From a phage: 64,000 nt of DNA. The translations under genes were made by a program, and so were the position numbers. The stretch's first letter is position 1. Every line of letters begins with the position of its first letter. The stretch lies in the sequence record PZ445498.1. One strand, given 5' to 3'. Positions 6,920 through 38,981 of the stretch are shown here, one piece after another. The notes under the pieces were generated by a model. The model worked only from the letters and a program-made list of their open reading frames with translations, had not been told where the DNA came from and did not search any database.

Positions 6920-7438
6920 GTGAAACCTCAACTAACAAAAGAATTTCTAGAGAAATATCTAGAACTCAGAGAAGATACTCTCTATTGGAAGCCAAGAGAG
7001 ACTAATAAAGGTGGATTTAATACTAGATTTGCTGGAAAACCTGTAGGAGCCGTCAATGGAAATGGCTACCTATGCTTCCGACTTAACGTGGAAGGTTATA
7101 GATGGGAATTAAGAAATCATGTAGTAATCTTCTGTCTCTATTATGGATATTACCCAACTAAGACAGTAGACCATAAAGATACAAATAAACTTAATAACCA
7201 TCCTTTAAATCTACGAGAATCAACCGATGCTGGTAATGCCCAAAATAGGGGAGCCGGTAAAAACAATACCCATGGACATAAAAACCTAGAGCCTCTTAGT
7301 TCAGGAAACTGGAGGGTTAGGATAACACACAACGGTACTGTTTACAGATCTTCCGCAATGCCTCTAGAAAAAGCTCTAGAACATAGAGATATTAAACTTA
7401 AAGAATTTCATGGCGAATACGCTAATAATGGAGAATAA
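6920..7438 (+). CDS. HNH homing endonuclease
   Basis: 172 aa; VDHKDTNKLNNHPLNLRE HNH core, same family as ORFs 21918 and 40363; inserted between nrdA and nrdB. Confidence 0.7.
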   Translation: MKPQLTKEFLEKYLELREDTLYWKPRETNKGGFNTRFAGKPVGAVNGNGYLCFRLNVEGYRWELRNHVVIFCLYYGYYPTKTVDHKDTNKLNNHPLNLRESTDAGNAQNRGAGKNNTHGHKNLEPLSSGNWRVRITHNGTVYRSSAMPLEKALEHRDIKLKEFHGEYANNGE

Positions 7439-25373: not shown

Positions 25374-25955
25374 ATGCACGGAATATCCTTACCCATTCCA
25401 GGGTTTGAGGAGTACTTAGTAAGTTTGGATGGGTTAGTATTTAGTATCAAATCAAACAAAATACTAACCCCAATAACCAGTAATTACGGATACTTATCTA
25501 TACGTCTCCATAAAAATGGTCAACAGAGAAATACCGGTGTACATAGGATTTTAGCATGTGCATTTAAGAAATTACCAAGTCTAGACTCTGAACTAGAAGT
25601 TGACCATATTAACACAGACATTACTTATTGGGGTCTTAATAACTTACAAGTGCTCACAAAAGAGCAGCATCTAGAAAAGACTTTAAAAGACAAAGGATTT
25701 AGTAAACTAAACCATGATAATTGTTGTAAGGATTGTGGTAAAGCTATTTCTTTAAAAGCTGAAAAATGTCAGGAGTGCTCTTCATATAAACCAAAAGATA
25801 TCTCTATAACTAAAGAAATAATCGAGGTTACAGTAAGAGAGCTAGGCTGGTCAGGTGCAGGGAGAAAGTTAAGTTATTCAGATAATGGGTTGCGTAAAAG
25901 ATACACTTCTTTAGGAGGCAATCCTAAAGAACTTAAAAAGTTAAAGGTACTATAG
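25374..25955 (+). CDS. HNH homing endonuclease with C-terminal Cys-rich region
   Basis: ELEVDHINTD..NLQVLTKEQH HNH core and CCKDCGK...CQECSS; its 3' end overlaps the first 10 nt of tRNA-Asp. Confidence 0.7.
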   Translation: MHGISLPIPGFEEYLVSLDGLVFSIKSNKILTPITSNYGYLSIRLHKNGQQRNTGVHRILACAFKKLPSLDSELEVDHINTDITYWGLNNLQVLTKEQHLEKTLKDKGFSKLNHDNCCKDCGKAISLKAEKCQECSSYKPKDISITKEIIEVTVRELGWSGAGRKLSYSDNGLRKRYTSLGGNPKELKKLKVL

Positions 25956-26020
25956 TCTAACGGTTAGGATACTCCCCTGTCACGGGAGAGGTAGGGTTTC
26001 GATTACCCTTAGTACCGCCA
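25946..26020 (+). tRNA. tRNA-Asp (anticodon GUC)
   Basis: Acceptor ggtacta/tagtacc, anticodon stem ctccc/gggag with loop ctgtcac, T-arm agggt-ttcgatt-accct, CCA. Confidence 0.85.
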
Positions 26021-26026
26021 AATTAT

Positions 26027-26103
26027 ACATCCATAGCTCAATTGGTTAGAGCTACCGCCTCTTAAGCGGTAGGTTCTAGGTTCAAGTCCTAGTGGGTGTA
26101 CCA
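26027..26103 (+). tRNA. tRNA-Lys (anticodon CUU)
   Basis: Acceptor acatcca/tgggtgt, D-arm gctcaattggttagagc, stem accgc/gcggt with loop ctcttaa, CCA. Confidence 0.75.
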
Positions 26104-26316
26104 AACATCAGAGCAGCGTGATGTACTGCAAAGACCCAAAGTCCGGGGTGGACTTCTTGATTCAAAGGAGCAGGCATTAATTATCATTCTAGCGTGGTGG
26201 AGAGGGGACACCAGCTTGCCGAGGGTAGAAGCTCGTTCGATTCGAGTGAAAGAATGGTTCTCGTAAATCCGCACAAGTGATAGTAGGTTCAAGTCCTACC
26301 TAGATTGACTCATTAT

Positions 26317-26390
26317 GCGTTCGTAGTTAAAAGGTATAATTTTTGGTTGCCAACCAGAAGTTGAGGGTTCGATTCCCTCCGACCGCACCA
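26317..26390 (+). tRNA. tRNA-Gly (anticodon GCC)
   Basis: Acceptor gcgttcg/cgaccgc, loop ttgccaa, T-arm gaggg-ttcgatt-ccctc, CCA. Confidence 0.7.
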
Positions 26391-26645
26391 AATCTTTGTA
26401 GGTCGCGTCACTTATAATGGGACTACAGGGTAAACAAGGCGATGAGTTTCCGGCCGGTTCTAGTCGCTGAAAATCCTCCCGACCAGGTAGGTGTAGGTAA
26501 ACGAAAGTTTACTTATTGAGTAGGTTCCGATAGATCGGCGAGTCTATTCTGGCATTTAAGAGAAGTCTCGCAAACTTCTTTGTCAGCCGTGGGGCTTGAA
26601 CCCTCCAGGTGGCCTACGCAATAAGTAAATTTATTAAAAATTCAT

Positions 26646-26674
26646 TTGCTATTTTGCTTAATTCTCTGTATAAT
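26646..26674 (+). promoter_or_regulatory. early promoter
   Basis: ttgcta-17-tataat. Confidence 0.65.
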
Positions 26675-26706
26675 ATATCTTATAAAGTGTTGAGAAGGAA
26701 AGCAAA

Positions 26707-26904
26707 ATGAAAAAAGTTATGTTACTATCTGTATTCTTACTCACTGGTTGCTTTAAATTTGATTCAACCATTAACAAGGAGTATGAATTTGCAAAAAATT
26801 TCTGTGGTGGAGAGAGTAAAATACAAAACTTCAGTATACACTCTACAATTCCTAGTACCATTTACTGCGTAGATGGACGGAATATTAATATTCCACCACA
26901 ATAA
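26707..26904 (+). CDS. small lipoprotein
   Basis: MKKVMLLSVFLLTGC lipobox. Confidence 0.5.
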   Translation: MKKVMLLSVFLLTGCFKFDSTINKEYEFAKNFCGGESKIQNFSIHSTIPSTIYCVDGRNINIPPQ

Positions 26905-28270: not shown

Positions 28271-28625
28271 ATTTATATAAATTGATGTGAAAATAGCTGC
28301 CTAGATATCAGGTGTATGACGTCTACACTAGCAGAGCTACCGAAAAAGAGATCCTCAGGATAAACGCCGTAGCAAAATTAGTCTGATATCCATCAATTTA
28401 GTTCACTAAGGTATTAGCTCGACCTAGGACTGGCTGCCAAAAAGCACAGTTGCAATTAGACCCCCTAATGGCGGGGGATGCTTTGCAATAAGTTCTAGAT
28501 TAGTCCACTAGATTCAGCGGCTACTGAATAGTGTATTGGGTTTGCGAGATGACGCGGTTCCTTCCGCTCGAAGCGAAGGTGCTGTAGTTACGCCGAGCTA
28601 ATAGCCTTAGTAAACTAAAGAATTT

Positions 28626-29483: not shown

Positions 29484-29578
29484 GGTAGGTCAATCCAATG
29501 GCTGGCGCTGGACTCCGACTTGAAATCGGTTGATCGTAGTGATACGGTGTAAGGGTTCGATCCCCTTACCTACCTCCA
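29484..29578 (+). tRNA. tRNA-Ser (anticodon UGA), type II
   Basis: Acceptor ggtaggt/acctacc, loop cttgaaa, long variable arm, T-arm aaggg-ttcgatc-ccctt, CCA. Confidence 0.65.
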
Positions 29579-29959
29579 AATCTTGAAGTATGCCGGAATC
29601 GGTAGACGGGGCTTCCTAAAGGGCGTAAGGGGAACATCCACTCCTCATAAGATACCCGAAAATGAGGCTGAGATAAATGGTCTATCTCATGAAGGTTCAA
29701 GTCCTTCTGCTTCTTGATACATTAATGGCTCAAAGTGTAACGGTGCTATTTGATGTTCTTAGTAAGACTTTCCCGACATGCGTTCGGGAGTAAGCTGCTA
29801 AGGCTAGAGTAGAAGAGTTTCGGAGAGCCGCCACAATTGAGTATTATTAGAGAGCATTCGCAAGAAAGAATCAGGAGAAAAACCTGTGCGCAGAATGACT
29901 AACTTTGGTACCTTAGACGGCCAAATGGAGGACTGATCATCCCCTAATAGTATTCAATT

Positions 29960-30511: not shown

Positions 30512-30519
30512 AACAATAA

Positions 30520-30595
30520 GCGGTTAAGCACACGGGTTGTGCCGCAGGCCTTCCAAGCCCCGCTGAGTAGGGTTCGATTCCCTCTAGCCGCTCCA
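30520..30595 (+). tRNA. tRNA, anticodon UCC (Gly) possible
   Basis: Acceptor gcggtta/tagccgc, D-arm gcac-acgggtt-gtgc, T-loop ttcgatt, CCA; anticodon stem weak. Confidence 0.5.
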
Positions 30596-30612: not shown

Positions 30613-30834
30613 ATGCACGTTTTTGAGTTTCGTGATAAAAGTAACAATAAACGAGTTATTGTTATTGGAGAAACATACCTAGCATACGAACAAACTGACG
30701 GCTCTGTTATCTTGAATGATGAGAAAGCAAATTTTAGCTTTTATCCAGAAGAACCTTATGAAGAGTTTCGTACTAAGTTTCTTTTACCAGACTGGCTAGC
30801 AGTAGCCGAGCAACTAGAATCCGAAGATGGCTGA
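30613..30834 (+). CDS. hypothetical protein
   Basis: 73 aa, aaggaaa RBS. Confidence 0.5.
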   Translation: MHVFEFRDKSNNKRVIVIGETYLAYEQTDGSVILNDEKANFSFYPEEPYEEFRTKFLLPDWLAVAEQLESEDG

Positions 30835-30985
30835 TAACCTGAGACTAAAGGTTGACAAACAAAAGAAACGTGTAGAGATTGAGCTTGGTGACGAACGCCT
30901 AGCACTATCCTTCGAGTTTCTTCAGCAGTTGGCGATGACAGTAATGTCTGATAAGTCTCCTGTATTTGAAAAAGAAATCCCGTTG
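30827..30985 (+). CDS. hypothetical small protein (52 aa, below the ORF-track cutoff)
   Basis: ATG overlaps the preceding stop (ATGGCTGA); MADNLRLKVDKQKKRVEIELGDERLALSFEFLQQLAMTVMSDKSPVFEKEIPLK. Confidence 0.35.
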
Positions 30986-31001
30986 AAATGACGGGTTTAT
31001 T

Positions 31002-31076
31002 GCTCCTAAAGCATTGCTGGCGATGCAGTTGCCTTGTAAGCATCTGAACTGGGTTCGACTCCTGGTGGGAGCACCA
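31002..31076 (+). tRNA. tRNA-Thr (anticodon UGU)
   Basis: Acceptor gctccta/tgggagc, loop cttgtaa, T-arm ctggg-ttcgact-cctgg, CCA. Confidence 0.7.
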
Positions 31077-31091
31077 AATTTAAAAATTCAT

Positions 31092-31120
31092 TTGCCTTCT
31101 CTCTTATTTCTTGTTATAAT
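31092..31120 (+). promoter_or_regulatory. early promoter
   Basis: ttgcct-17-tataat. Confidence 0.6.
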
Positions 31121-31150
31121 ATTTATATAAATTAATGAGAGGGAAACCAA

Positions 31151-31444
31151 ATGAAACGTTATCTTTCTGTCGTGTTCCAAACTGGTGGTCAACGCTACAC
31201 TTATGAATTTCCTGAGTCCTGGAAAATTAAAGAAGGTGATCAAGTTGTTGTATTAACACCTCGTGAAGGCTTCAAAGTAGTAACGGTTAAACAAGTCTTT
31301 CCAAAAGATCACGAACCATCTAAGTCTATTCAGTACAAGATGATTCACGGTCTGGTACGAAAAGTACCTAGAACAGAAGTCGAAGTAGATAAAACTGGGG
31401 AAGCTAAATACCAGTATACTTCTTACTTGGATGAAATGATGTAA
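31151..31444 (+). CDS. hypothetical protein
   Basis: 97 aa, promoter 31092-31120 and shared leader. Confidence 0.5.
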   Translation: MKRYLSVVFQTGGQRYTYEFPESWKIKEGDQVVVLTPREGFKVVTVKQVFPKDHEPSKSIQYKMIHGLVRKVPRTEVEVDKTGEAKYQYTSYLDEMM

Positions 31445-31445
31445 T

Positions 31446-31521
31446 GCTCTGATAGTTCAACAGGTTAGAACAGGCGACCGATAATCGTCAAATCTTGGTT
31501 CGATCCCAAGTCGGAGTACCA
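31446..31521 (+). tRNA. tRNA-Ile (anticodon GAU); C at position 33
   Basis: Acceptor gctctga/tcggagt, D-arm gttcaacaggttagaac, stem ggcga/tcgtc with loop ccgataa, T-arm cttgg-ttcgatc-ccaag, CCA. Confidence 0.7.
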
Positions 31522-31527
31522 AATTAT

Positions 31528-31603
31528 AGTTAGTTGGCAGAGTGGTTATGCACCTCCTTCATACGGAGCGACTACAGTGGTTCAACTCCACTACTAACTA
31601 CCA
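31528..31603 (+). tRNA. tRNA with CAU anticodon (Met, fMet or Ile2)
   Basis: Acceptor agttagt/actaact, loop ttcatac, T-arm agtgg-ttcaact-ccact, CCA. Confidence 0.65.
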
Positions 31604-31786
31604 AAGATAAGATCAGGCCTTTGTGCCAGATCTCTGTGTTTATTAAACTGAATGGGACTATCAATCCACAAGCCGGACTACGAGCGATTATCGGGTATTC
31701 ACTTAATAAACAGCCTGCCTCCCAGTTTTTATCTTGCTTCTGGGTTAACAAAAAGCTGAGCCAAATTCTAACATCAGGGAGATCTA

Positions 31787-32155
31787 ATGAAAGCATATCA
31801 AAGTCTTAAGTCTGGCGTAATTAACCTTGTTCATGATAACCAGATCATTCAGCTATATTCTAAAGATGGTGAACTTAAACAAAAGGTTCTAGTTGAAGAT
31901 CTAGAGGGTATCACACCTCATTTTGACCCTGAGGCCTTCCGCATTGTAGATGTAGAAGTGGTTCCTCAAGTCGAGGGTGGTCAGCACCTAAATGTCAATG
32001 TGTTAAGCCGTGATCAGCTTTTGGATGCACAGAAACATCTTGAAAAATATCCTCAGTTGACCATCCGTGTCTCTGGCTATGCTGTTCGATTTAACGCATT
32101 GACGCGTGAACAACAGAACGACGTTATTAGTCGTACATTTACTCAGGCGATATAA
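31787..32155 (+). CDS. hypothetical protein
   Basis: 122-aa ORF. Confidence 0.5.
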
Positions 32156-32236
32156 TGGGGTTTGGATACGATTTCTCCCAACTACGCAAGGTAGTCGAGC
32201 AAACTCCATTTATCTCCCAAGTTTTAGGAGAAATGT

Positions 32237-32536
32237 GTGGATCGAGCAGTAAGACGCCATCACCGGCAACGTGTGAAAAACAATCGCAAGAAGTATTGGA
32301 CAGTCTTCCCACATGAAGAAAGCCCTAAGAGGTTAGGCATTATCACTACCACTCCTTGCATCTGTTCTTGTTGGATGTGTGGGAATCCTCGCAAATACTA
32401 TAAGAATAGTAAAGCAGGCATGAAAATTTCGGAGATTAAAAAGATGGATGCAATGATTATGGGCATCACCTTTACAGGTGGTATCTCTGATGAATTCGAC
32501 GGTTTTGTAACTCAGGATATTGTCGAAATTATCTAA
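32237..32536 (+). CDS. hypothetical Cys-rich protein
   Basis: 99 aa, PCICSCWMCGNP; start codon uncertain (GTG). Confidence 0.4.
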   Translation: MDRAVRRHHRQRVKNNRKKYWTVFPHEESPKRLGIITTTPCICSCWMCGNPRKYYKNSKAGMKISEIKKMDAMIMGITFTGGISDEFDGFVTQDIVEII

Positions 32537-32545
32537 TTAATAATA

Positions 32546-32582
32546 AACCCCAGCTATTGAATACGTAGTCTGGGGTTTTCTT
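32546..32582 (+). terminator. rho-independent terminator
   Basis: aaccccag ... ctggggtt followed by ttcttg. Confidence 0.6.
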
Positions 32583-32600
32583 GTATATAGGATTTTCGAA

Positions 32601-32786
32601 ATGAAAATTTTTAAAGTGAACTATAGCGGCCTGTGGTTAGGTGGTACAGCTATTGTTGTTGCGGAAACTGCGGAAGAAGCAATCGAACTGGCTAGAAATC
32701 ATAGAAGTTCTATAGAATTCGAGAATGTGACAGCAGAAGAACTCCCTAGCAGTGGGGTAGTATACAACGATAACGGAGACTACTAA
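32601..32786 (+). CDS. hypothetical protein
   Basis: 61 aa, follows terminator 32546-32582. Confidence 0.45.
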   Translation: MKIFKVNYSGLWLGGTAIVVAETAEEAIELARNHRSSIEFENVTAEELPSSGVVYNDNGDY

Positions 32787-32845
32787 ATGTTATATTTTGA
32801 AGTTAGACCACATTAAGTTACTTTAACAGACTTAATGGAGGTATT

Positions 32846-33199
32846 ATGAGCCGTACATATCGTAAACAATCGGGAAATCGTCACTGGCGTGATGCACATC
32901 GTTCTAAATTCAACTTTACTCTTGGGTACAATCGTCGTTTCTTTGCTTTGAAGGAGCCAGCAGTCCCGTATACTAGAGAAGAAGTTGAAAAGGAATTACA
33001 AGACCATATCATTAAATATGAGAAGAAGGATGGTTACAACTGGGATTCTATCAGCCAAGCCGTCAAGTGGCACTCTAACAAAATGGTTCGTCAAGGAAAC
33101 CGTATGGAACTGCATCGTGTTATGCAAGATCCGGAAAATTACGACTACAACTGCGATCATGACCTACGTAAGCGTGGGTTATGGTGGTGCTACGACTAA
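32846..33199 (+). CDS. hypothetical protein
   Basis: 117 aa. Confidence 0.5.
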   Translation: MSRTYRKQSGNRHWRDAHRSKFNFTLGYNRRFFALKEPAVPYTREEVEKELQDHIIKYEKKDGYNWDSISQAVKWHSNKMVRQGNRMELHRVMQDPENYDYNCDHDLRKRGLWWCYD

Positions 33200-33216
33200 T
33201 TTCGTAAATAATTCAT

Positions 33217-33245
33217 TTGCTAAAACCCTCTCCTTTTGATATAAT
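33217..33245 (+). promoter_or_regulatory. early promoter
   Basis: ttgcta-17-tataat. Confidence 0.65.
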
Positions 33246-33275
33246 ATTTATATAAATTGATGAGAGGGCTTTGAA

Positions 33276-33557
33276 ATGAAAACTCGCCTAGACTGTGCTG
33301 TTCACGTACTTGAGCATGATGTTGTTGGGACTTGTATGTCTTATCATGAAGCAGGTAAAATGATTGTTAAACGTGTTGCTGATGTTTGTAGTTTGAAAAT
33401 CACCGAAGATGAAGCAGACGAACTGCTTGGACAGGCAATAGAGAAAACAGAAATTTTCTTGTGCGATTCTTGTTCTTGGTGGTGTGAAGCTCACGAACAT
33501 TCTTTCAATGATTATGATGTATGCCGTGACTGTAAAGAGGACGATGAAGATGAATAA
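33276..33557 (+). CDS. Cys-rich zinc-binding protein
   Basis: CDSCSWWCEAH...CRDC. Confidence 0.5.
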   Translation: MKTRLDCAVHVLEHDVVGTCMSYHEAGKMIVKRVADVCSLKITEDEADELLGQAIEKTEIFLCDSCSWWCEAHEHSFNDYDVCRDCKEDDEDE

Positions 33558-33849
33558 GTTTATTATTGCTCTGGTAATTTCAGCAGTCAGTTTCGGTTCT
33601 CTGGCATCTACCAAAGTTTCTATGAAGAATGGTAATGTTAAAGTTCAGCAGAATGGCATTACCACCGAATATGGTAAAGTACGTGGTGTAAAAGAACGTA
33701 ATGGCAAAGTAGAAATATATACTAATAAAAACTTCTCTACTCCGGCTGTTACTGTTAGTAAACGTGGTGAAATCACTACTCAACGTACTAATAGTTCTGA
33801 TTCTTTTACTTGCCGTTATGACTGCGGCTTTGAAGGTGAAGATGAGTAA
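33544..33849 (+). CDS. hypothetical secreted protein
   Basis: Signal peptide MKMNKFIIALVISAVSFGSLAS; start overlaps the previous stop. Confidence 0.5.
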   Translation: MKMNKFIIALVISAVSFGSLASTKVSMKNGNVKVQQNGITTEYGKVRGVKERNGKVEIYTNKNFSTPAVTVSKRGEITTQRTNSSDSFTCRYDCGFEGEDE

Positions 33850-34261
33850 TTTAGACCCTAGAATTAAACATGCAGTTGAAGAAATCCAAGATCAAATCGA
33901 TGAGGATTTCACTGTTTGGTCAAGATTTGGTAATGGTGAAGGTTGTCAGCTTTATAGCATGAAAATGGGTATCTCGATTGAACTTAGTATCAATCCCGAG
34001 GGTAACGTAGAAGCCCAACCCCTGTTCAGTGTTCCAGGCTTCTCTGGATTTGTTATGGGCATGAAACTATGTCTACCAAATAAACATCTTTACCGTGTTA
34101 TCTGTCAGCTAGAAACAATTAAACATTTCTTGCCAGAAGATAACATTAATGACTACTATCATGAAGTTGTAGCAGCTTACATGATGAAAGAACGCAAACG
34201 TCGGAGAGCAGAACGTGAAAGAGCTAAATCTCAACAGTCTAGTACAGATTCCAGCAACTGA
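33842..34261 (+). CDS. hypothetical protein
   Basis: Start at ATG overlapping the previous stop (ATGAGTAA). Confidence 0.5.
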   Translation: MSNLDPRIKHAVEEIQDQIDEDFTVWSRFGNGEGCQLYSMKMGISIELSINPEGNVEAQPLFSVPGFSGFVMGMKLCLPNKHLYRVICQLETIKHFLPEDNINDYYHEVVAAYMMKERKRRRAERERAKSQQSSTDSSN

Positions 34262-34508
34262 TGCTGTACTAGAATATCTTAGAAAGGATCATGTTAAATT
34301 CTGGACTGATTATAGCTACGATCATAACTCAGATTTAGCTACTGATTTTGCAAATAAACGAATAGCTGAGTATAAAGATCCTAGAGTTAAAAATGGTATG
34401 ATTACCTTACCACTTTGGGATGTAATGGAAAAGTTTGGTAAAGATTTGTGCCCAGGTTGTATACCATTGTTTGTTACTATTCTAATTGACGAAAAGGATC
34501 TTAAATGA
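34215..34508 (+). CDS. hypothetical protein (start uncertain)
   Basis: Track ORF with GTG start overlapping the previous gene by 47 nt. Confidence 0.35.
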   Translation: MKELNLNSLVQIPATDAVLEYLRKDHVKFWTDYSYDHNSDLATDFANKRIAEYKDPRVKNGMITLPLWDVMEKFGKDLCPGCIPLFVTILIDEKDLK

Positions 34509-34789
34509 TTATCTCTCCATTTGCTTTGTGGTTTGTTATTGGTGCAGTTGTCGCGATTTATAGCCTGATTGATGATCTGTATATCTCTAAAAATAAAGAT
34601 GTTATTCTTTATGTTATAAACAAATATCGTACACCAGAATTAGCAGAATTTGACGATGAAAAGATGTTCAAATTCATTATGTCAGGTATGCTTATTATGG
34701 ACACCTTGTTCGGGCCAGTAGCTACTTATTTCTTCTTTCGTAAAACTCGTAAGATGAAAAAATTCCGTGCTGAAATGCAGAGCAAGTAA
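34505..34789 (+). CDS. hypothetical membrane protein
   Basis: 94 aa, hydrophobic N-terminus. Confidence 0.5.
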   Translation: MIISPFALWFVIGAVVAIYSLIDDLYISKNKDVILYVINKYRTPELAEFDDEKMFKFIMSGMLIMDTLFGPVATYFFFRKTRKMKKFRAEMQSK

Positions 34790-34905
34790 AGAACTCGCGT
34801 AGGACCGAGTTGCGTCACCTGCAACTGTTACGGATAAGGGAGTCGTGCCCCTTAGTGCGGTAAGTGGTGAGTTGGTCGCGGACCTCAACTTTAACTGGAG
34901 ATATC

Positions 34906-35253
34906 ATGAGCTTTATTTTATTCATTGTAGCAGCATGGTTTATTATTGGTTTAGGCTATGCTATTGCAGTTATTCGTCATCTGGATGAATATTCTGCTGA
35001 ATGGTTTATTAAGTACCTACGTTTAGACGATCAAGAATATGAGTTCGACAGTGATGAGGAAAGGCAGGCTGTCCAGTCAATGACTCCCAAAGAATGCTTG
35101 CTCTACATGCGTGTAATTGGTTTCTTTGGACTGTTGGTAGCAGGACCGCTAGGTCTTACTATTGCTCCTTACAAAGACGTTATTGACGACATTAAACTAT
35201 GGAGAACCGCTGGATCGCTACGTCGTGCTAGAGAATTAAGTAAACAAGAGTGA
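34906..35253 (+). CDS. hypothetical membrane protein
   Basis: Start at MSFILFIVAAWF. Confidence 0.5.
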   Translation: MSFILFIVAAWFIIGLGYAIAVIRHLDEYSAEWFIKYLRLDDQEYEFDSDEERQAVQSMTPKECLLYMRVIGFFGLLVAGPLGLTIAPYKDVIDDIKLWRTAGSLRRARELSKQE

Positions 35254-35288
35254 TGATAATCACCTCCTAGCAAGAATAATAATGACAA

Positions 35289-35326
35289 AGCCCAGTCGCA
35301 AAATTGCAGGCTGGGCTATTTTTTGT
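35289..35326 (+). terminator. rho-independent terminator
   Basis: agcccag ... ctgggct followed by attttttg. Confidence 0.7.
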
Positions 35327-35339
35327 AATAAAATTTCAG

Positions 35340-35368
35340 TTGCTCAGATGCCACAAGTATTATATAAT
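35340..35368 (+). promoter_or_regulatory. early promoter
   Basis: ttgctc-17-tataat, follows terminator 35289-35326. Confidence 0.6.
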
Positions 35369-35399
35369 ATGTTTATAGATTGAGGCAAGAGGATTAAAT

Positions 35400-36080
35400 A
35401 TGAGAATTATTAGTAAATGGGCAGATGTATACGATTTGCAGAACAGCTTGTTTGACCCCGATCGTGCTTGGGAGCGTAAAACTGAAGAGCTAACAATAAA
35501 GGCTCCAGATGATGGCAACTACATGATTATGCAAGAACGTATGATTGCTCGTGTTGGTGAAAAGAAAGGCTATTTTAAAATTCTACCGTTTTTCCTAGCA
35601 GGAGAGATTTATTGGATGTACCATATTGATGTATTGGATACTCAAGTAAAAACTTTCAATCTAGACAAAGCATTAGAAGTTTTGAAAGAGAATGGATGGT
35701 CAACGGGATTTTCTCTACTAGATATAAATAGAGGAAAGCCAAAAGAATCTATTCTATCCTGGCAAGAGGAAGTTACCTCTAAAGCTGAAGAGGCCTTAGC
35801 TGAGTTAAGAGTACCTTTAGCGGTTCTAGACTCAGTAGTTCCAAATGATAAAGATAGTAATAAGTATTTCAAGGTTATAACTAACCCACGCCTACATCTA
35901 TCAGGTATTCCGTGGCAGGAAGTTGAAAGCAACTTATACCGATTACACCAGAGAATTGAACAATATATCTGGGGCGTACTTGGAACAGGAGAACCAGATA
36001 TTATTACCATTTCTGATAAAGACCGCCTAGCAGCACATGGATTTGATACGGTTACGTCATTCAGGAATATGAAAAGATGA
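35400..36080 (+). CDS. hypothetical protein
   Basis: 226 aa, promoter 35340-35368 upstream. Confidence 0.55.
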   Translation: MRIISKWADVYDLQNSLFDPDRAWERKTEELTIKAPDDGNYMIMQERMIARVGEKKGYFKILPFFLAGEIYWMYHIDVLDTQVKTFNLDKALEVLKENGWSTGFSLLDINRGKPKESILSWQEEVTSKAEEALAELRVPLAVLDSVVPNDKDSNKYFKVITNPRLHLSGIPWQEVESNLYRLHQRIEQYIWGVLGTGEPDIITISDKDRLAAHGFDTVTSFRNMKR

Positions 36081-36520
36081 TAAAAAACTTTATTAGTTCT
36101 CTATGGCAAGGTAAGTGGTATATCCTGGGAGCTGGTCTTGCGATAGGTATCGGATTCGGTGCTTATCATTTAGTAAATAAGGTCGAAACTTTAGCGGGAG
36201 ATCTTGCAGTTGCGACTAAAAAGATCTCCACTCTAGAGACTTCTCTTAATAAAGTGAAAACTGAGAGTGAACTTCGTGAGACTCGAATGAACCAGTATTT
36301 TACAATGAATAATATTTCGCAAGCAGATCTAGACAAAAAGATTAAGCAGTTAGATAAAGCTCTTAGTCGTCAAGATGTTATTGCTGCAAAGCCTGGATTG
36401 GTAACATTAATTGCTAAAAAGCAGAATAAAGAGTTCGAGGAAAGATTAGCATGTTTAACTGGAAACTTGGAGTACTGCTCGCAGCCGCAATCACAATCAC
36501 AGGCTGTGCAGAAGAAATAA
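36077..36520 (+). CDS. membrane-anchored coiled-coil protein
   Basis: N-terminal TM helix then coiled coil. Confidence 0.5.
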   Translation: MIKNFISSLWQGKWYILGAGLAIGIGFGAYHLVNKVETLAGDLAVATKKISTLETSLNKVKTESELRETRMNQYFTMNNISQADLDKKIKQLDKALSRQDVIAAKPGLVTLIAKKQNKEFEERLACLTGNLEYCSQPQSQSQAVQKK

Positions 36521-36804
36521 AACCGGAGCCATCCCATGAGTTAAAGCAAGCTCATGTAGATTGGCCTAAAGTACTTCAGCCGTGTAGCTTTGATTTCAAA
36601 TTCGAAAAGAAATTAGCTACAAATGGTGAAGATGGCGTAGTAGTTGTTGTACCTTACAAAGATTGGAATGCAAAAGCAAAATGCGAGGAAGCAGTTTACT
36701 CTTACATTTCACGACTGACCGGTATGGTTTGCTTCTATCGTCAAGATTTACAAGAAAAACGTTGCTTAGTTTATTATCCACCCATTACAAATAGGAAAGA
36801 TTAA
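36451..36804 (+). CDS. lipoprotein
   Basis: MFNWKLGVLLAAAITITGC lipobox; overlaps the previous ORF. Confidence 0.45.
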   Translation: MFNWKLGVLLAAAITITGCAEEIKPEPSHELKQAHVDWPKVLQPCSFDFKFEKKLATNGEDGVVVVVPYKDWNAKAKCEEAVYSYISRLTGMVCFYRQDLQEKRCLVYYPPITNRKD

Positions 36805-37556
36805 TGTCAGTATTAGTCGGTTTACATGGTGAGGCTGGTGCGGGAAAAGATACCGTTGCAGAATTAATGATTGACTGGTGTAATGACACGTTCCCAACGT
36901 GTTCATCCCGTCGTTATAGTTTTGCTAAACCCGTTTACGAACTTGCATCCGTAATCCTTGGGGTAACTCCAGAGTTTCTGGGAGAGCGCAGGGGAAAAGA
37001 GATTGACCAATGGTTTACAGTCACACAATCTCAATTGGAGCGAGCTAGAGACGTATGGTTTAAGTATGGTATCGATAAGTTTGAGGACTTCTCGTACGTT
37101 TGGCCGATATTTGAAGGAAAATACCTTGATCCTCAGCAGTTAATTGGGCAAGCTGATGATGCGCTGTATAGCGTATTTATCTCCCCAAGAAAAATGCTAC
37201 AGCTTGTAGGTACTGAGTTAGGAAGGCAGCTGGTGCATGAACGCATTTGGCTCATAATTCTGGAGCAATCCATCGATAAAGACGACCCAGACGTCGCAAT
37301 AGTTACCGATGTGCGTTTCCCCAATGAGGGAGAACTAATCATGGAAACCAATACTCTAGATATGGATTCCATGCTTATTAAGGTTGAATCTGGTATTACT
37401 AATAAGTATCGCATCGAGACAGATCATCCGTCTGAAAGCGGTATTCCTGAAAAATACATTTCTCATAAATTTGAGAATACCTTCAACGGACTTGATGCAC
37501 TTCGTACCGATGTGTACCACTTCTGTGACTTAGAGCTAGAACCACTAGTTGGATAA
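36804..37556 (+). CDS. dnk: deoxynucleoside monophosphate kinase
   Basis: N-terminal P-loop LVGLHGEAGAGKDT as in phage dNMP kinases. Confidence 0.65.
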   Translation: MSVLVGLHGEAGAGKDTVAELMIDWCNDTFPTCSSRRYSFAKPVYELASVILGVTPEFLGERRGKEIDQWFTVTQSQLERARDVWFKYGIDKFEDFSYVWPIFEGKYLDPQQLIGQADDALYSVFISPRKMLQLVGTELGRQLVHERIWLIILEQSIDKDDPDVAIVTDVRFPNEGELIMETNTLDMDSMLIKVESGITNKYRIETDHPSESGIPEKYISHKFENTFNGLDALRTDVYHFCDLELEPLVG

Positions 37557-37568
37557 TTAAGGATCACT

Positions 37569-38168
37569 ATGACTAACAAGAAAGAAGAAAAGACTAACCT
37601 GTTTCACACTGTTCGCCAATCTAATGAGTATACCTTTTTCTTTGACGAAGAGTTAGGCTCACCGGATGAGTATCGTGATCTATCAATGATACTTATGCAG
37701 GCTGGTGAAGATGATGAAATTAATCTGATGATTAATGGGCCTGGTGGTTATGTTGATACTGCTGCACAGCTATCTAACCTAATCGCTAACTGTCGTGGAA
37801 CGGTTATTGGACACCTGCTCGGTCCTAGTGCTTCTGCTTACTGCACAATCTTCCTATCTTGCCACGGTTGGGTTGTACATCCACATGCTACGCTTATGGG
37901 GCATACGTTCTCTGGCGGATTCTGTGAGAAAGGTCAAGAAATCAAGAAAGCCTATGAATCCTACAACCAGTTTGTAGAAGATATGATGCTAGATATTTAC
38001 TTTCCGTTCTTCTCTGTAGACGAAATCGAGGACATGGTAAAAGAGAATAAGAATATCTATCTCAACAGCAAAGAAATCAATAAGCGTATTGAAATTTTGG
38101 CGAATTATCGTAAAGAGCAGTGTAGTAAAGCTCAAGCCCCGCATCCAGAAGAACATGGAGAAGTGTAA
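37569..38168 (+). CDS. ClpP-like serine protease family protein
   Basis: ...INLMINGPGGYVDTAAQ...GPSASAYCTIF...HPHATLMGHTFSGG ClpP-like pattern. Confidence 0.55.
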   Translation: MTNKKEEKTNLFHTVRQSNEYTFFFDEELGSPDEYRDLSMILMQAGEDDEINLMINGPGGYVDTAAQLSNLIANCRGTVIGHLLGPSASAYCTIFLSCHGWVVHPHATLMGHTFSGGFCEKGQEIKKAYESYNQFVEDMMLDIYFPFFSVDEIEDMVKENKNIYLNSKEINKRIEILANYRKEQCSKAQAPHPEEHGEV

Positions 38169-38177
38169 GTAGTTTTA

Positions 38178-38210
38178 AGCCAGAGTTTAACGACTCTGGC
38201 TTTTCTTTTG
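38178..38210 (+). terminator. rho-independent terminator after the ClpP-like gene
   Basis: agccagag ... ctctggct followed by tttctttt. Confidence 0.7.
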
Positions 38211-38271
38211 CCTAAAATTCTTCTTGACAACGACAAAAAATTGTGCTCCAGAAGTGATCTTAAAAAACACA

Positions 38272-38298
38272 TTGTAATTTTACTCTAGAATTAGTATA
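38272..38298 (+). promoter_or_regulatory. promoter upstream of the holin-endolysin cassette
   Basis: ttgtaa-17-tataat. Confidence 0.45.
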
Positions 38299-38324
38299 AT
38301 GGTAGTGGTTAGAGGAGGTTACAA

Positions 38325-38981
38325 GTGGAAAAGTTTATACAACTATTAACGATACTGCTACAAGAAGCGAAAGATCCAGCTTCGCTACTAAAACGTCTGC
38401 TAACTATCTTAGTTGCTGTCATTATTTTCTTGTTTGTAAGTAACACTAGCGAGGTGATGTCATTTTTAAAGACTTTCTCCACGTCTTCGGTTTTACAGGA
38501 TGTTCAAACCCAAAGGATAGATAACTTTCCTAATGTAGCACGAGAAAAGAGTATGATTCTTTTCTCCCAGACTGGTGCGGATGCCGTTTTTGTAGTAAAA
38601 TATAAACCAGATGCTATAAATGATTATTCAAACATTATTGCATGGGAAAGCAATGCGCAATTGGATAGGGCTGACTTGGCCGATAAAGCAGTAAATAAGA
38701 CGTCTGAACTTTATAGACGTCACCTGGAAGGCTTTAACTACGCTGCGGATTTAAGTGTAAAAGTAAATAAATATACTGGGTCAAATATACCAGCATTTAA
38801 GAACATTACTTTTAATTACGTCTACACTTGTCCATATTTCAACCTAAATAATATCTATGCTGGATACATAGGTATTGCATGGAAGGATAAACCCGTAGAT
38901 ACAGCTGATTCGGAACAATTTAATGAGTACTTAGCAAAGCTCTGTTCCCCACAACGGAGATCATTAGGTAGATCTATATGA
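38325..38981 (+). CDS. holin (putative)
   Basis: 218 aa with an N-terminal TM helix, immediately upstream of and overlapping the endolysin gene. Confidence 0.55.
   Translation: MEKFIQLLTILLQEAKDPASLLKRLLTILVAVIIFLFVSNTSEVMSFLKTFSTSSVLQDVQTQRIDNFPNVAREKSMILFSQTGADAVFVVKYKPDAINDYSNIIAWESNAQLDRADLADKAVNKTSELYRRHLEGFNYAADLSVKVNKYTGSNIPAFKNITFNYVYTCPYFNLNNIYAGYIGIAWKDKPVDTADSEQFNEYLAKLCSPQRRSLGRSI

What the first reader, a model, noticed from the sequence alone, without database searches (positions are those of the whole stretch)
26104..26640. Non-tRNA spacers inside the tRNA array: candidate stable small RNAs or pseudo-tRNAs (first block)
Segments 26104-26316 and 26391-26640 carry T-arm-like GGTTCGA/GGTTCAAGTCC motifs and multiple hairpins (ggtggagaggggacacc, agcttgccgagggtagaagct) but do not fold into complete tRNAs and have no ORF. 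They would be co-transcribed and processed with the flanking tRNAs.
Basis: seen in the sequence. Interest (0 to 1): 0.45.

Follow-up and report, generated by a model that had tools for sequence, protein, structure and literature searches.

The report
Known T5 tRNA-like stable RNA genes
The two "empty" gaps in this T5-like phage's tRNA gene cluster hold the genes of two small tRNA-shaped RNAs known from phage T5 since the 1980s (RNA2 and RNAIV), whose function is still unknown, plus two shorter conserved non-coding pieces that nobody has annotated.

Summary
The window is a T5-like phage, about 99% identical to Escherichia phages IrmaTschudi and vB_EcoS_Ace. The two spacers are real: no tRNA or Rfam family is called in them and no reading frame is conserved.

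They are not anonymous. 26185-26310 is the homolog of T5/BF23 "rna2" (tRNA-like stable RNA, unknown function). 26518-26620 is the homolog of "rnaIV" (stable RNA, unknown function), sitting just upstream of the P13a promoter as in T5.

RNA2 has a tRNA-shaped fold with strong covariation support:
- It has a 7-bp acceptor stem, a D arm, a T arm and a 5-nt variable loop.
- About 55 nt, including a second T-loop hairpin and a nearly invariant strand, replace the anticodon loop.

Relatives of RNA2 occur in Klebsiella, Serratia, Pantoea and Erwinia T5-like phages. They also occur in T4-like Acinetobacter phages.

RNAIV folds as a 5-helix cloverleaf, but its sequences vary little.

Two further modules are conserved, mosaic in distribution and unannotated: 26104-26184 and 26391-26517.

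No function could be established; a tRNA-mimic or decoy role is my inference.

The parts
26104..26184 (+). Module 1a: an ~80-nt conserved non-coding insert directly after the CCA end of tRNA-Lys(ctt). Proposed hairpins are 26105-26110/26119-26124, 26134-26137/26146-26149 and 26153-26158/26165-26170. It is not annotated in any record seen.
   Evidence: It is found in 134 phage records at >=80% identity. It is absent from T5 and BF23.

It is also present in Klebsiella Sugarlandvirus phages (L004 1501-1580) and in the myovirus FBKp34 (L043 1005-1085, 81% identity), in both cases close to a tRNA-Lys gene.

FBKp34 carries two compensatory pairs: ACCC/GGGT becomes ACTC/GAGT, and CTTCTT/AAGGAG becomes CCTCTT/AAGGGG. 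With only 3 distinct sequences this is suggestive, not proof.
26185..26310 (+). RNA2 homolog, a tRNA-like stable RNA of 126 nt.
- Acceptor stem: 26186-26192/26300-26306
- D arm: 26195-26199/26209-26213
- Anticodon-position stem: 26215-26218/26274-26277
- Inner helix: 26223-26226/26267-26270
- Internal T-loop hairpin: 26232-26235/26243-26246, loop TTCGATT
- Nearly invariant strand TGAAAGAATGGTTCTCGTAA: 26247-26266
- T arm: 26283-26287/26295-26299
   Evidence: - nhmmer against T5 rna2 gives E 3.6e-26.
- Covariance model R1 scores 149.8 bits.
- The homologous stretch is annotated rna2 in T5, BF23 and phage 5.
- Structure test: 96.3% of cells paired, 23 of 29 pairs changed on both sides, covariation score 0.48 against 0.05-0.10 for slid partners.
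- A MAFFT-only alignment agrees.
26317..26390 (+). tRNA-Gly(gcc), which separates the two spacers. RNase P cleavage at its 5' end would leave RNA2 with a short 3' trailer.
   Evidence: ARAGORN and Rfam tRNA at 61.1 bits. The same gene follows rna2 in BF23 and is deleted in T5.
26391..26517 (+). Module 2a, a structured spacer with a variable 5' part (26391-26430) and a conserved core (26431-26517).
- Hairpin GGCGAT/GTCGCT at 26438-26443/26463-26468, enclosing the palindrome CCGGCCGG (26450-26457)
- A variable middle hairpin
- A 10-bp GAAA-tetraloop hairpin at 26493-26502/26507-26516 that abuts RNAIV

It is not annotated anywhere.
   Evidence: It is found in 220 records. It is present in BF23 and in phages that share the window's layout (e.g. 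L019, L031), and absent in T5, where the deletion cuts through the last hairpin.

The RNAalifold consensus has three hairpins. The stems are invariant, so there is no covariation test. The middle hairpin is swapped for a different hairpin-forming sequence in L010, L030 and L044. A 5-nt indel rules out the 25-aa ORF.
26518..26620 (+). RNAIV homolog, a stable RNA of 103 nt.
- Terminal stem: 26520-26526/26611-26617
- 8-bp hairpin: 26529-26536/26541-26548
- Long arm: 26549-26553/26582-26586 plus 26559-26566/26574-26581, with the invariant 7-nt loop CTCGCAA (26567-26573)
- T-arm-like hairpin: 26591-26594/26602-26605
   Evidence: - nhmmer against T5 rnaIV gives E 1.2e-24.
- It is annotated rnaIV in T5, BF23 and phage 5, immediately upstream of promoter P13a.
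- The 5-helix model has 99.3% of cells paired, and its stem substitutions are pair-preserving, adding 14 extra standard pair types. It beats an alternative model at 96.1%.
- Variation is low.
26646..26674 (+). Sigma-70-type promoter (TTGCTA, 17 nt, TATAAT), the homolog of T5 P13a. It marks the end of the RNA block and drives the next unit (ORF 26707-26904, tRNA-Pro, tRNA-fMet).
   Evidence: Promoter scan gives 10 of 12 matches. The site aligns with the annotated P13a of T5 and BF23.

Best explanation
The spacers carry four independent non-coding modules on the same strand as the tRNAs. Two of them are the already described T5-group genes rna2 and rnaIV.

Shown:
- RNA2 is a tRNA-shaped RNA. It has a 7-bp acceptor stem, a 2-nt linker, a D arm with a GGGGA loop, a 5-nt variable loop and a canonical T arm.
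- Its anticodon loop is replaced by a ~55-nt domain. That domain holds a 4-bp inner helix, a second T-loop hairpin and a nearly invariant single strand.
- RNAIV is a 103-nt cloverleaf-like RNA with a terminal 7-bp stem and an invariant 7-nt loop, CUCGCAA.

Inferred biogenesis, from textbook tRNA processing:
- The modules are transcribed with the neighbouring tRNAs from upstream early promoters.
- RNase P cuts at the 5' side of each acceptor-like stem and at tRNA-Gly.
- 3' exonucleases trim the short trailers.
- The CCA-adding enzyme completes ends that are not encoded. Some homologs encode NCCA; the window has G-ACT.
- The tRNA-like fold makes the products stable.

Inferred function, low confidence (about 0.25): RNA2 and RNAIV act in trans as tRNA mimics. 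They would engage proteins that recognise the acceptor/T-arm 'top half' or elbow of tRNA, as accessory factors in the phage-host conflict over tRNA. They would not act as decoders.

Modules 1a and 2a are most likely structured spacers or further small RNAs released from the same precursor.
For: Identity:
- BLAST hits fall on the annotated rna2 and rnaIV of T5, BF23 and phage 5.
- nhmmer gives E ~1e-24 to 1e-26.

RNA2 structure:
- 96.9% of cells paired, with 15 of 29 pairs changed on both sides, in a MAFFT alignment.
- 96.3% paired and 23 of 29 pairs in the 31-sequence family alignment. No shuffle out of 500 reached the observed value, and slid controls scored 0.05-0.10 against 0.48.
- The acceptor stem is completely re-written in relatives: ATTCTAG, TACGGGG, AGACAAT, GGGTACT, TACTGAC and GACTTTG, each with its complement.
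- NCCA is encoded in Kpn_3 (TCCA), in AAS21 and KEY (ACCA), and in OSY-STA (GCCA).
- The RNA2 model aligns true tRNAs over its full length at 14-30 bits, far below family members at >=60 bits.

Selection on the inner domain: TGAAAGAATGGTTCNCGTAA is nearly invariant from enterobacterial T5-like phages to T4-like Acinetobacter phages and to 164-167 kb contigs.

RNAIV: pair-preserving substitutions.

Accessory nature:
- T5Mos lacks 30661-38625, which includes rna2 (32959-33083) and rnaIV (32838-32940), and is still viable (PMC11464382; coordinates).
- The T5 tRNA array is documented as counter-defence against tRNA-cleaving systems (PMC11464382, PMC10264068, PMC11555353).

Composition: module GC is 0.46-0.52 against 0.40 for the window.
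Against: - No expression data exist for this phage. 'Stable RNA' rests on the annotation of related records.
- Folding energies are not better than shuffles.
- The window's RNA2 has a T:T mismatch in the acceptor stem, a C:A mismatch next to the anticodon-position stem, and no encoded CCA.
- RNAIV varies too little for a strong covariation test (3 pairs with double changes).
- Alignment A5 is fitted to the model, which flatters the pair counts.
- No binding partner, target or phenotype is known. The decoy idea is inference from context only.
- RNA2 has no anticodon loop, so it could not decoy anticodon-specific nucleases.
- The 1a evidence rests on 3 distinct sequences.
- 2a has no covariation at all.
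Confidence: 0.75

Rival explanations
1. These are decaying tRNA genes or passive processing punctuation. The RNAs would be leftovers of tRNA gene duplication and insertion, cut out only because they still look like tRNA to RNase P, and would have no function in trans.
For: - They are dispensable in the laboratory: T5Mos and other viable tRNA-region deletions of T5 (PMC11464382).
- Modules show presence/absence mosaicism.
- The window copy has mismatches in its acceptor stem, and CCA is missing.
- T5 carries a whole set of such RNAs (RNA1, 2, 3, 2H, I, III, IV), all of unknown function.
Against: - A pseudogene would not keep four to six helices through compensatory changes.
- It would also not keep a 20-nt single-stranded tract almost invariant between Demerecviridae and Straboviridae phages of different hosts.
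- The inserted domain has its own covarying helices (the T' hairpin and the inner helix).
Confidence: 0.15
2. These are DNA-level elements. The conserved modules, above all 1a and 2a, would be recognition or recombination sites of the homing endonucleases that populate the tRNA region, or cargo moved with them. Selection would then act on DNA, not RNA.
For: - An HNH endonuclease ORF lies immediately upstream at 25374-25955, and hegA-D sit in the T5 array.
- Modules 1a and 2a are inserted or deleted as blocks with boundaries at tRNA ends.
- 2a contains an 8-bp palindrome, CCGGCCGG.
- 1a is 96-98% identical between Escherichia/Salmonella and Klebsiella phages while its flanks differ.
Against: - Compensatory changes in two 1a hairpins in FBKp34 point to RNA pairing.
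- All modules lie on the transcribed strand, inside a tRNA operon, flush with processing sites.
- No cleavage-site data exist.
- This does not apply to RNA2 or RNAIV, whose covariation is RNA-type.
Confidence: 0.1
3. Module 2a is a cis-acting element rather than an RNA gene. It would act as a processing, stability or attenuation signal for RNAIV, for example an entry or barrier hairpin for RNase E, RNase III or exonucleases directly in front of the RNAIV 5' end.
For: - The 10-bp GAAA-tetraloop hairpin (26493-26516) ends 1-2 nt before RNAIV.
- GGTAAAC occurs twice (26429 and 26496), which allows alternative pairing with GTTTAC.
- 2a always precedes RNAIV when it is present.
Against: - T5 makes RNAIV without 2a: only the 3' half of the hairpin remains there.
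- No terminator-like site is detected there.
- There is no covariation.
Confidence: 0.2
4. The spacers encode small proteins, for example the 56-aa GTG ORF at 26096-26266, the 25-aa ORF at 26442-26519, or minus-strand ORFs.
For: Mechanical ORFs exist, and some database records call 'hypothetical proteins' over these stretches.
Against: - The ORFs span independent modules (1a plus RNA2) that occur separately in other phages.
- Indels of 1, 2 and 5 nt in homologs break the frames.
- The substitution pattern is stem-compensatory, not codon-like.
Confidence: 0.02

Closest known systems
Phage T5, BF23 and Salmonella phage 5 RNA2 (gene rna2, T5s06; 'tRNA-like stable RNA with unknown functions')
   Same: - About 90% sequence identity over the whole RNA.
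- Same length: 125 nt against 126 nt.
- Same fold.
- Same place in the array: directly 5' of tRNA-Gly(gcc) as in BF23, and upstream of RNAIV and P13a.
   Different: - The window copy has one extra base in the D loop.
- Its D stem is TGGTG/CACCA instead of TGGTT/AACCA, and its T stem is GTAGG/CCTAC instead of GCAGG/CCTGY.
- Its inner-helix pair is T-A instead of C-G.
- It has a T:T mismatch in the acceptor stem.
- It is preceded by module 1a and tRNA-Lys(ctt) instead of ORF T5.067.
Phage T5, BF23 and phage 5 RNAIV (gene rnaIV, T5s05; 'stable RNA with unknown functions')
   Same: - About 93% identity.
- 103 nt.
- Same position, immediately upstream of promoter P13a.
- Same predicted 5-helix fold and the same invariant loop CUCGCAA.
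   Different: - The T-like hairpin loop is CTTGAAC instead of TTGGTAG.
- The two bases before the terminal stem are GA instead of AT.
- The base after the terminal stem is G instead of A.
- In the window and BF23 it is preceded by module 2a, which T5 lacks.
Phage T4 RNAC and RNAD (species 1 and species 2 RNAs)
   Same: - Small stable RNAs encoded inside a phage tRNA cluster and co-transcribed with tRNAs.
- RNAC also has a terminal stem plus a canonical T arm, with a large internal insertion.
- Their biological role is still unknown (PMC3014915, PMC9697503).
   Different: No detectable homology. Model R1 finds only genuine tRNAs in the T4 tRNA region. The RNA2 relatives in T4-like Acinetobacter phages are a different gene from T4 rnaC and rnaD.
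Canonical tRNA (Rfam RF00005), and tRNA-like domains of tmRNA and bacterial Y RNA (YrlA)
   Same: - RNA2 keeps the acceptor stem, the D arm with GG, the 5-nt variable loop, a T arm with a TTCRANY loop and, in some homologs, an encoded NCCA.
- Spacing is in tRNA register.
- The T4-like variants replace the D stem by an unpaired GGTGGAAG. From my recollection of tmRNA structure, not tested here, tmRNA likewise has a stem-less D loop.
   Different: - There is no 7-nt anticodon loop, and RNA2 is not called by ARAGORN or by the Rfam tRNA, tmRNA or Y-RNA models.
- G3:U70 is not conserved.
- No tag reading frame is conserved (indels).
- The terminal stem is acceptor-like and not a Ro-binding stem.

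Membership tests
T5-group RNA2 (rna2) | Sequence homology to the annotated rna2 of T5, BF23 and phage 5 | tested here: met
   nhmmer gives E 3.6e-26 over 124 of 125 nt. BLAST hits lie under the rna2 feature. R1 scores 149.8 bits.
T5-group RNA2 (rna2) | Conserved tRNA-like secondary structure: acceptor, D, anticodon-position stem, inner domain, T arm | tested here: met
   Every helix is formable in the window copy, apart from one T:T mismatch in the acceptor stem. At family level, 96.3% of cells are paired and 23 of 29 pairs covary.
T5-group RNA2 (rna2) | Position in the tRNA array, upstream of tRNA-Gly/RNAIV/P13a on the tRNA strand | tested here: met
   Alignment with BF23 and T5.
T5-group RNA2 (rna2) | Accumulates as a discrete stable RNA in infected cells | not testable with these tools
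   Only the annotation wording of the T5 and BF23 records is available. The original papers are not held.
T5-group RNAIV (rnaIV) | Sequence homology to the annotated rnaIV | tested here: met
   nhmmer gives E 1.2e-24. BLAST shows 92.7-93.8% identity to T5 and BF23 under the rnaIV feature.
T5-group RNAIV (rnaIV) | Lies immediately 5' of promoter P13a | tested here: met
   RNAIV ends at 26620. The promoter TTGCTA-17-TATAAT lies at 26646-26674 and aligns to the annotated P13a.
T5-group RNAIV (rnaIV) | Conserved secondary structure | tested here: inconclusive
   99.3% of cells are paired and substitutions are pair-preserving. But only 3 pairs changed on both sides, and mean identity is 96%.
Canonical tRNA | Cloverleaf with a 5-bp anticodon stem and a 7-nt anticodon loop, detectable by tRNA models | tested here: not met
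   ARAGORN and Rfam RF00005 call nothing in 26104-26316 or 26391-26640, even at E<=10. In RNA2 the anticodon loop is replaced by ~55 nt.
Canonical tRNA | Encoded or added 3' CCA after a discriminator base | tested here: inconclusive
   The window has G-ACT and T5 has G-ACA. The homologs Kpn_3, AAS21, KEY and OSY-STA encode NCCA. Post-transcriptional addition is not testable.
tmRNA | tRNA-like domain with G3:U70, plus a conserved tag reading frame and pseudoknots | tested here: not met
   There is no ARAGORN tmRNA call. The only Rfam tmRNA_permuted hit lies on the tRNA-Gly T arm, at E 0.93. Acceptor sequences vary freely, and the candidate frames are broken by indels of 1-2 nt.
T4 RNAC/RNAD | Homology to T4 rnaC or rnaD | tested here: not met
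   R1 finds only tRNAs in the T4 tRNA region that contains rnaC and rnaD. No sequence similarity is visible by eye.

The most novel reading that the evidence does not exclude
RNA2 would be the founding member of a widespread, un-catalogued family of phage 'two-T-loop' tRNA mimics. The family occurs in T5-like Demerecviridae and in T4-like phages of Acinetobacter, and it is absent from Rfam.

In this reading the tRNA top half gets the RNA processed and stabilised. The invariant lower domain (a second T-loop plus the UGG-containing strand) is an effector. It would dock onto a conserved tRNA-binding host or defence component, or onto the elbow or CCA end of other tRNAs in the way T-box and RNase P RNAs do. 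That would make it an RNA-based counter-defence or translation-control factor.

Module 1a, which stays next to tRNA-Lys genes in three phage lineages, could be a further small RNA linked to the tRNA-Lys conflict.
Probability: 0.15. Interest if true: 0.7.

Novelty: already known. Interest (0 to 1): 0.3.

Why it matters
The finding rediscovers T5 RNA2 and RNAIV, which have been catalogued for decades, so it is not new.

It matters in a modest way. These RNAs, like T4 RNAC and RNAD, are long-standing orphans sitting in tRNA arrays, and those arrays are now known to be counter-defence loci.

It also shows that the family reaches T4-like phages, and that the inner domain is under much stronger constraint than the tRNA-like scaffold. 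Together these give concrete handles for finding a function: which bases to mutate, and which phages to compare.

Most modern annotations leave these genes blank or call spurious ORFs over them.

Tried and rejected
- **Rfam.** Scans at a permissive threshold over 16 kb and over the 631-nt region alone gave nothing but tRNAs and chance hits.
- **Folding energy.** Single-sequence folding was not informative; all z-scores were about 0.
AGCTT/AAGCT is not maintained in Kamaji, AAS21, L041 or the Acinetobacter phages, so I rejected it.
- **My first inner helix for RNA2.** CGAGGGC/GTTCTCG is broken by the G-to-T change in BF23 and Kpn_3, and the N in GTTCNCG does not covary. I replaced it with GGGY/RTCC.
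- **RNAIV alternatives.** The short hairpin CCGA/TCGG and the pairing TGGCT/AGCCG scored worse (96.1% paired, one helix at 83%) than the 8-bp hairpin and CTGGC/GTCAG.
- **tmRNA-like tag frame in RNA2.** Rejected because of indels.
- **Homology of RNA2 to T4 rnaC/rnaD or to T5 RNA1.** No model hit.
- **Distant RNAIV relatives.** None were found in the fetched loci.
- **Bacterial genomes.** A scan for the RNA2 core found only one phage-like 167-kb contig and one chance match inside AT-rich sequence, so no host counterpart was found.
- **Metagenome scan.** It added only one diverged member, L041.
- **Literature.** I found no paper assigning a function. The T5 genome paper and the T5 deletion-mutant paper are not held.
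- **Not attempted.** I considered testing complementarity of the invariant strand to host rRNA or tRNA, but it is not feasible with the available search sensitivity.
Full report
**What the window is.** BLAST of 25900-26720 against phage genomes gives 99.5% identity over the full length to Escherichia phage IrmaTschudi and 99.1% to vB_EcoS_Ace. Hundreds of further T5-like Demerecviridae also match. ARAGORN finds 26 tRNA genes, all on the + strand. The finding covers the two gaps tRNA-Lys(ctt) 26027-26103 | gap | tRNA-Gly(gcc) 26317-26390 | gap. The second gap runs up to a sigma-70-type promoter at 26646-26674.

**Checking the observation.** The gaps are real, and no tRNA is called in them.
- Rfam finds nothing, either in a 16-kb scan at E<=1 or in a 631-nt scan at E<=10 with lax filters.
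- Only short mechanical ORFs are present. They do not survive comparison, because homologs differ by 1-, 2- and 5-nt indels and by whole-module presence or absence.
- The T-arm motif GGTTCAAGTCC is at 26286-26296.
- 'GGTTCGA' is not literally in the spacers. The spacer motif is CGTTCGATTCG, at 26234-26244.
- Of the two hairpins quoted, ggtggagaggggacacc is genuine and covaries.
- The other, agcttgcc...gaagct, is not conserved in diverged relatives.
- Single-sequence folding energies are no better than shuffled controls (z = -0.6 to +0.1). The argument for structure therefore rests on comparative data.

**What is known about these stretches.** BLAST of each spacer lands on annotated features in the curated records of phage T5 (NC_005859), BF23 (NC_042564) and Salmonella phage 5 (AJ604531).
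- These features are rna2, 125 nt, 'tRNA-like stable RNA with unknown functions', and rnaIV, 103 nt, 'stable RNA with unknown functions', followed by 'promoter P13a'.
- In BF23 the order is rna2, tRNA-Gly, about 150 nt, rnaIV, P13a, exactly as in the window. In T5, tRNA-Gly and the following about 130 nt are deleted.
- nhmmer maps T5 rna2 to 26185-26309 (E 3.6e-26) and T5 rnaIV to 26520-26619 (E 1.2e-24).
- T5 annotates seven such RNAs in its tRNA region: RNA1, 2, 3, 2H, I, III and IV. The window also has homologs of rna2H, rna1 and rnaI.

The core of the finding is therefore a rediscovery of known genes.

**Four modules, not two.** Each spacer is composite.
- In the first spacer, bases 26104-26184 (module 1a) are absent from T5 and BF23.
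  - 1a occurs in 134 phage records, including Klebsiella Sugarlandvirus phages at 96-98% identity and the myovirus FBKp34 at 81%.
  - RNA2 (26185-26310) has its own, different distribution.
- In the second spacer, 26391-26517 (module 2a) is found in 220 records and is absent from T5.
  - RNAIV (26518-26620) is in about 400 records.

**RNA2 structure.** I collected diverged relatives:
- Klebsiella phages vB_Kpn_3 and AmPh_EK80
- Serratia phage Kamaji
- Pantoea phage AAS21
- Erwinia phage KEY
- Salmonella phage OSY-STA
- a metagenome contig (L041)
- T4-like Acinetobacter phages 133, Acj9, ZZ1 and AB1I1M-1
- three 164-167 kb contigs (L046, L054, L056)

The fold that all of them can form is this:
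- a 7-bp acceptor stem
- a 2-nt linker
- a 5-bp D stem with a GGGGA-containing loop
- one base
- a 4-6 bp stem in the anticodon-stem position
- an inner 4-bp helix, GGGY/RTCC
- a 4-bp hairpin capped by a T-loop, TTCGATT, closed by G-C as in a real T arm
- a nearly invariant strand, TGAAAGAATGGTTCNCGTAA
- a 5-nt 'variable loop'
- a canonical T arm
- the acceptor 3' strand and a discriminator base

| Test | Cells paired | Pairs changed on both sides | Covariation score |
|---|---|---|---|
| MAFFT alignment, 10 Demerecviridae sequences | 96.9% | 15 of 29 | 0.37 |
| Same alignment, 3' partners slid by 1-3 columns | 28-46% | 1-3 of 29 | 0.04-0.08 |
| 31 distinct family members aligned to model R1 | 96.3% | 23 of 29 | 0.48 |
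| Same alignment, 3' partners slid by 1-3 columns | 30-47% | 8-13 of 29 | 0.05-0.10 |

In the 31-sequence test, none of 500 shuffles reached the observed values. That alignment is fitted to the model, which flatters the counts. However, the non-seed members were found at E 1e-13 to 1e-26, and their helices can be read directly from the sequences.

Three further points bear on the tRNA likeness.
- The acceptor stem is entirely re-written between lineages, each version with its complement: ATTCTAG, TACGGGG, AGACAAT, GGGTACT, TACTGAC, GACTTTG.
- Several homologs encode NCCA after it: TCCA, ACCA and GCCA.
- The RNA2 model aligns genuine tRNAs end to end at 14-30 bits by skipping the inner domain, while family members score 60-157 bits.

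RNA2 is thus a tRNA in which about 55 structured nucleotides replace the anticodon loop. The T4-like Acinetobacter versions keep the inner domain and the T arm. They replace the D stem by an unpaired, conserved GGTGGAAG, and their acceptor stems are weak.

**What varies and what does not.** The tRNA-like scaffold varies freely while keeping its pairing. The inner single strand is almost invariant across two phage families and different host genera. That pattern points to a trans-acting surface rather than a spacer or a pseudogene. A tmRNA-like tag frame is excluded by 1- and 2-nt indels in EK80 and OSY-STA. The freely varying acceptor stem argues against a specific aminoacylation identity.

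**RNAIV structure.** The 23 distinct sequences are 96% identical on average. The best model has these parts:
- a 7-bp terminal stem
- an 8-bp hairpin in the D-arm position
- a long arm (5 bp, an internal loop, then 8 bp) capped by the invariant loop CUCGCAA, which has the C-U-NNN-A-A shape of an anticodon loop
- a 4-nt linker
- a 4-bp hairpin with a 7-nt loop
- a 5-nt linker
- a 3' tail, RCA

This model has 99.3% of cells paired. Its stem substitutions are pair-preserving, but only three pairs changed on both sides. A rival model is worse. The fold is plausible and cloverleaf-like. It is less firmly established than that of RNA2, and its loops lack the T-loop and D-loop consensus. I found no relatives outside close T5-like phages.

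**Modules 1a and 2a.**
- **1a** sits flush against the CCA end of tRNA-Lys(ctt).
  - In FBKp34 it follows tRNA-Lys(ttt). In Sugarlandvirus it follows tRNA-Lys plus a 97-nt tRNA-like element.
  - Three hairpins are possible. FBKp34 has two compensatory pairs and one broken pair among its 16 differences. With three distinct sequences this is only suggestive.
- **2a** has a variable 5' part and a conserved core.
  - The core holds an invariant hairpin enclosing CCGGCCGG and a middle hairpin whose sequence is swapped in some phages.
  - A 10-bp GAAA-tetraloop hairpin ends right at the RNAIV 5' end.
  - There is no covariation, because there is no variation.

Neither module is annotated in any record I saw. 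They could be additional small RNAs, processing or stability elements, or cargo of the homing-endonuclease traffic in this region.

**How it most likely works.**
- Shown: the identity of RNA2 and RNAIV, their folds, their strand, and their position inside a tRNA transcription unit that ends before P13a.
- Inferred from standard tRNA biogenesis: RNase P cleaves 5' of the acceptor-like stems and of tRNA-Gly, leaving RNA2 a 9-nt trailer. Exonucleases trim that trailer, the CCA-adding enzyme completes it, and the compact tRNA-like fold gives stability.
- Inferred function, about 0.25 confidence: they are tRNA mimics that engage proteins recognising the tRNA top half or elbow, as accessory factors in the conflict over tRNA.

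The supporting context for the functional guess is as follows.
- The T5 tRNA array is dispensable in the laboratory. T5Mos lacks 30661-38625, which includes rna2 and rnaIV.
- The same array supplies counter-defence tRNAs against PARIS and retron effectors (PMC11464382, PMC11555353, PMC10264068).
- No paper assigns a function to these RNAs or to T4 RNAC and RNAD (PMC3014915, PMC9697503).

RNA2 lacks an anticodon loop, so it cannot be a decoy for anticodon-specific nucleases. Its second T-loop and its invariant UGG-containing strand recall, by analogy only, how T-box and RNase P RNAs hold the tRNA elbow and the CCA end.

**Comparison with known families.** RNA2 and RNAIV are members of the T5-group rna2 and rnaIV genes: homology, synteny and structure were all tested and met, and expression was not testable.
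- They are not canonical tRNAs, because they lack an anticodon loop and no tRNA model calls them.
- They are not tmRNA or Y RNA.
- They are not homologous to T4 rnaC or rnaD, which are the closest functional analogy.
- The family is absent from Rfam 15.

**Verdict.** The feature is already known as a gene, though not in function.
- a covariation-backed RNA2 fold
- the extension of the family to T4-like phages
- the modular dissection of the spacers
- two unannotated conserved modules

Interest is low to moderate.

Noticed in passing
window 28412-28606, 29583-29725, 29727-29833: These are homologs of three more T5 'stable RNAs with unknown functions': rna2H, rna1 and rnaI (nhmmer E 1e-24 to 1e-41).
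   Followed up: partly
window 29484-29574 and 30519-30592: The Rfam tRNA-Sec model gives sub-threshold hits here (37.6 and 28.5 bits against a gathering score of 47), in places where ARAGORN calls no tRNA. These are further tRNA-like elements in the array.
   Followed up: no
L004:1404-1500 (Klebsiella phage AmPh_EK80); related sequence 5' of module 2a in L010, L030 and L044: An unannotated ~97-nt tRNA-like element with a 7-bp acceptor stem (GGGACTT/AAGTTCC) and an encoded ACCA. In the T-arm position it has an odd arm, GGGAG-TAACACGTAG-TCTCCC.
   Followed up: no
window 26027-26184; L043:927-1085; L004:1331-1580: Module 1a lies within 100 nt downstream of a tRNA-Lys gene in all three phage lineages where it was seen: Lys-CTT, Lys-TTT and Lys. 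tRNA-Lys is a frequent target of anticodon nucleases, so the linkage may or may not be meaningful.
   Followed up: partly
window 26707-26904 (+): This 65-aa ORF sits behind the P13a-like promoter and begins MKKVMLLSVFLLTGC, a lipoprotein signal peptide with a lipobox. The T5 ORF at the same position (T5.066) is annotated as having two transmembrane domains.
   Followed up: no
window 25374-25955 (+): This 193-aa ORF is annotated in relatives as an HNH homing endonuclease. Its 3' end overlaps the first 10 nt of tRNA-Asp (25946).
   Followed up: no
L046:7053-7127 (-), next to its RNA2-like gene at 6935-7054: A 167-kb contig deposited as a 'bacterium' carries a T4-like tRNA array. It has an amber-suppressor-type tRNA (anticodon CTA) immediately 5' of the RNA2 homolog.
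   Followed up: no
database records matching 26104-26640 (e.g. IrmaTschudi, PMBT22, SB13): Several GenBank and RefSeq records call 'hypothetical protein' ORFs across RNA2, RNAIV or module 1a. Most others leave them blank. Only the T5, BF23 and phage 5 records annotate the RNAs.
   Followed up: partly
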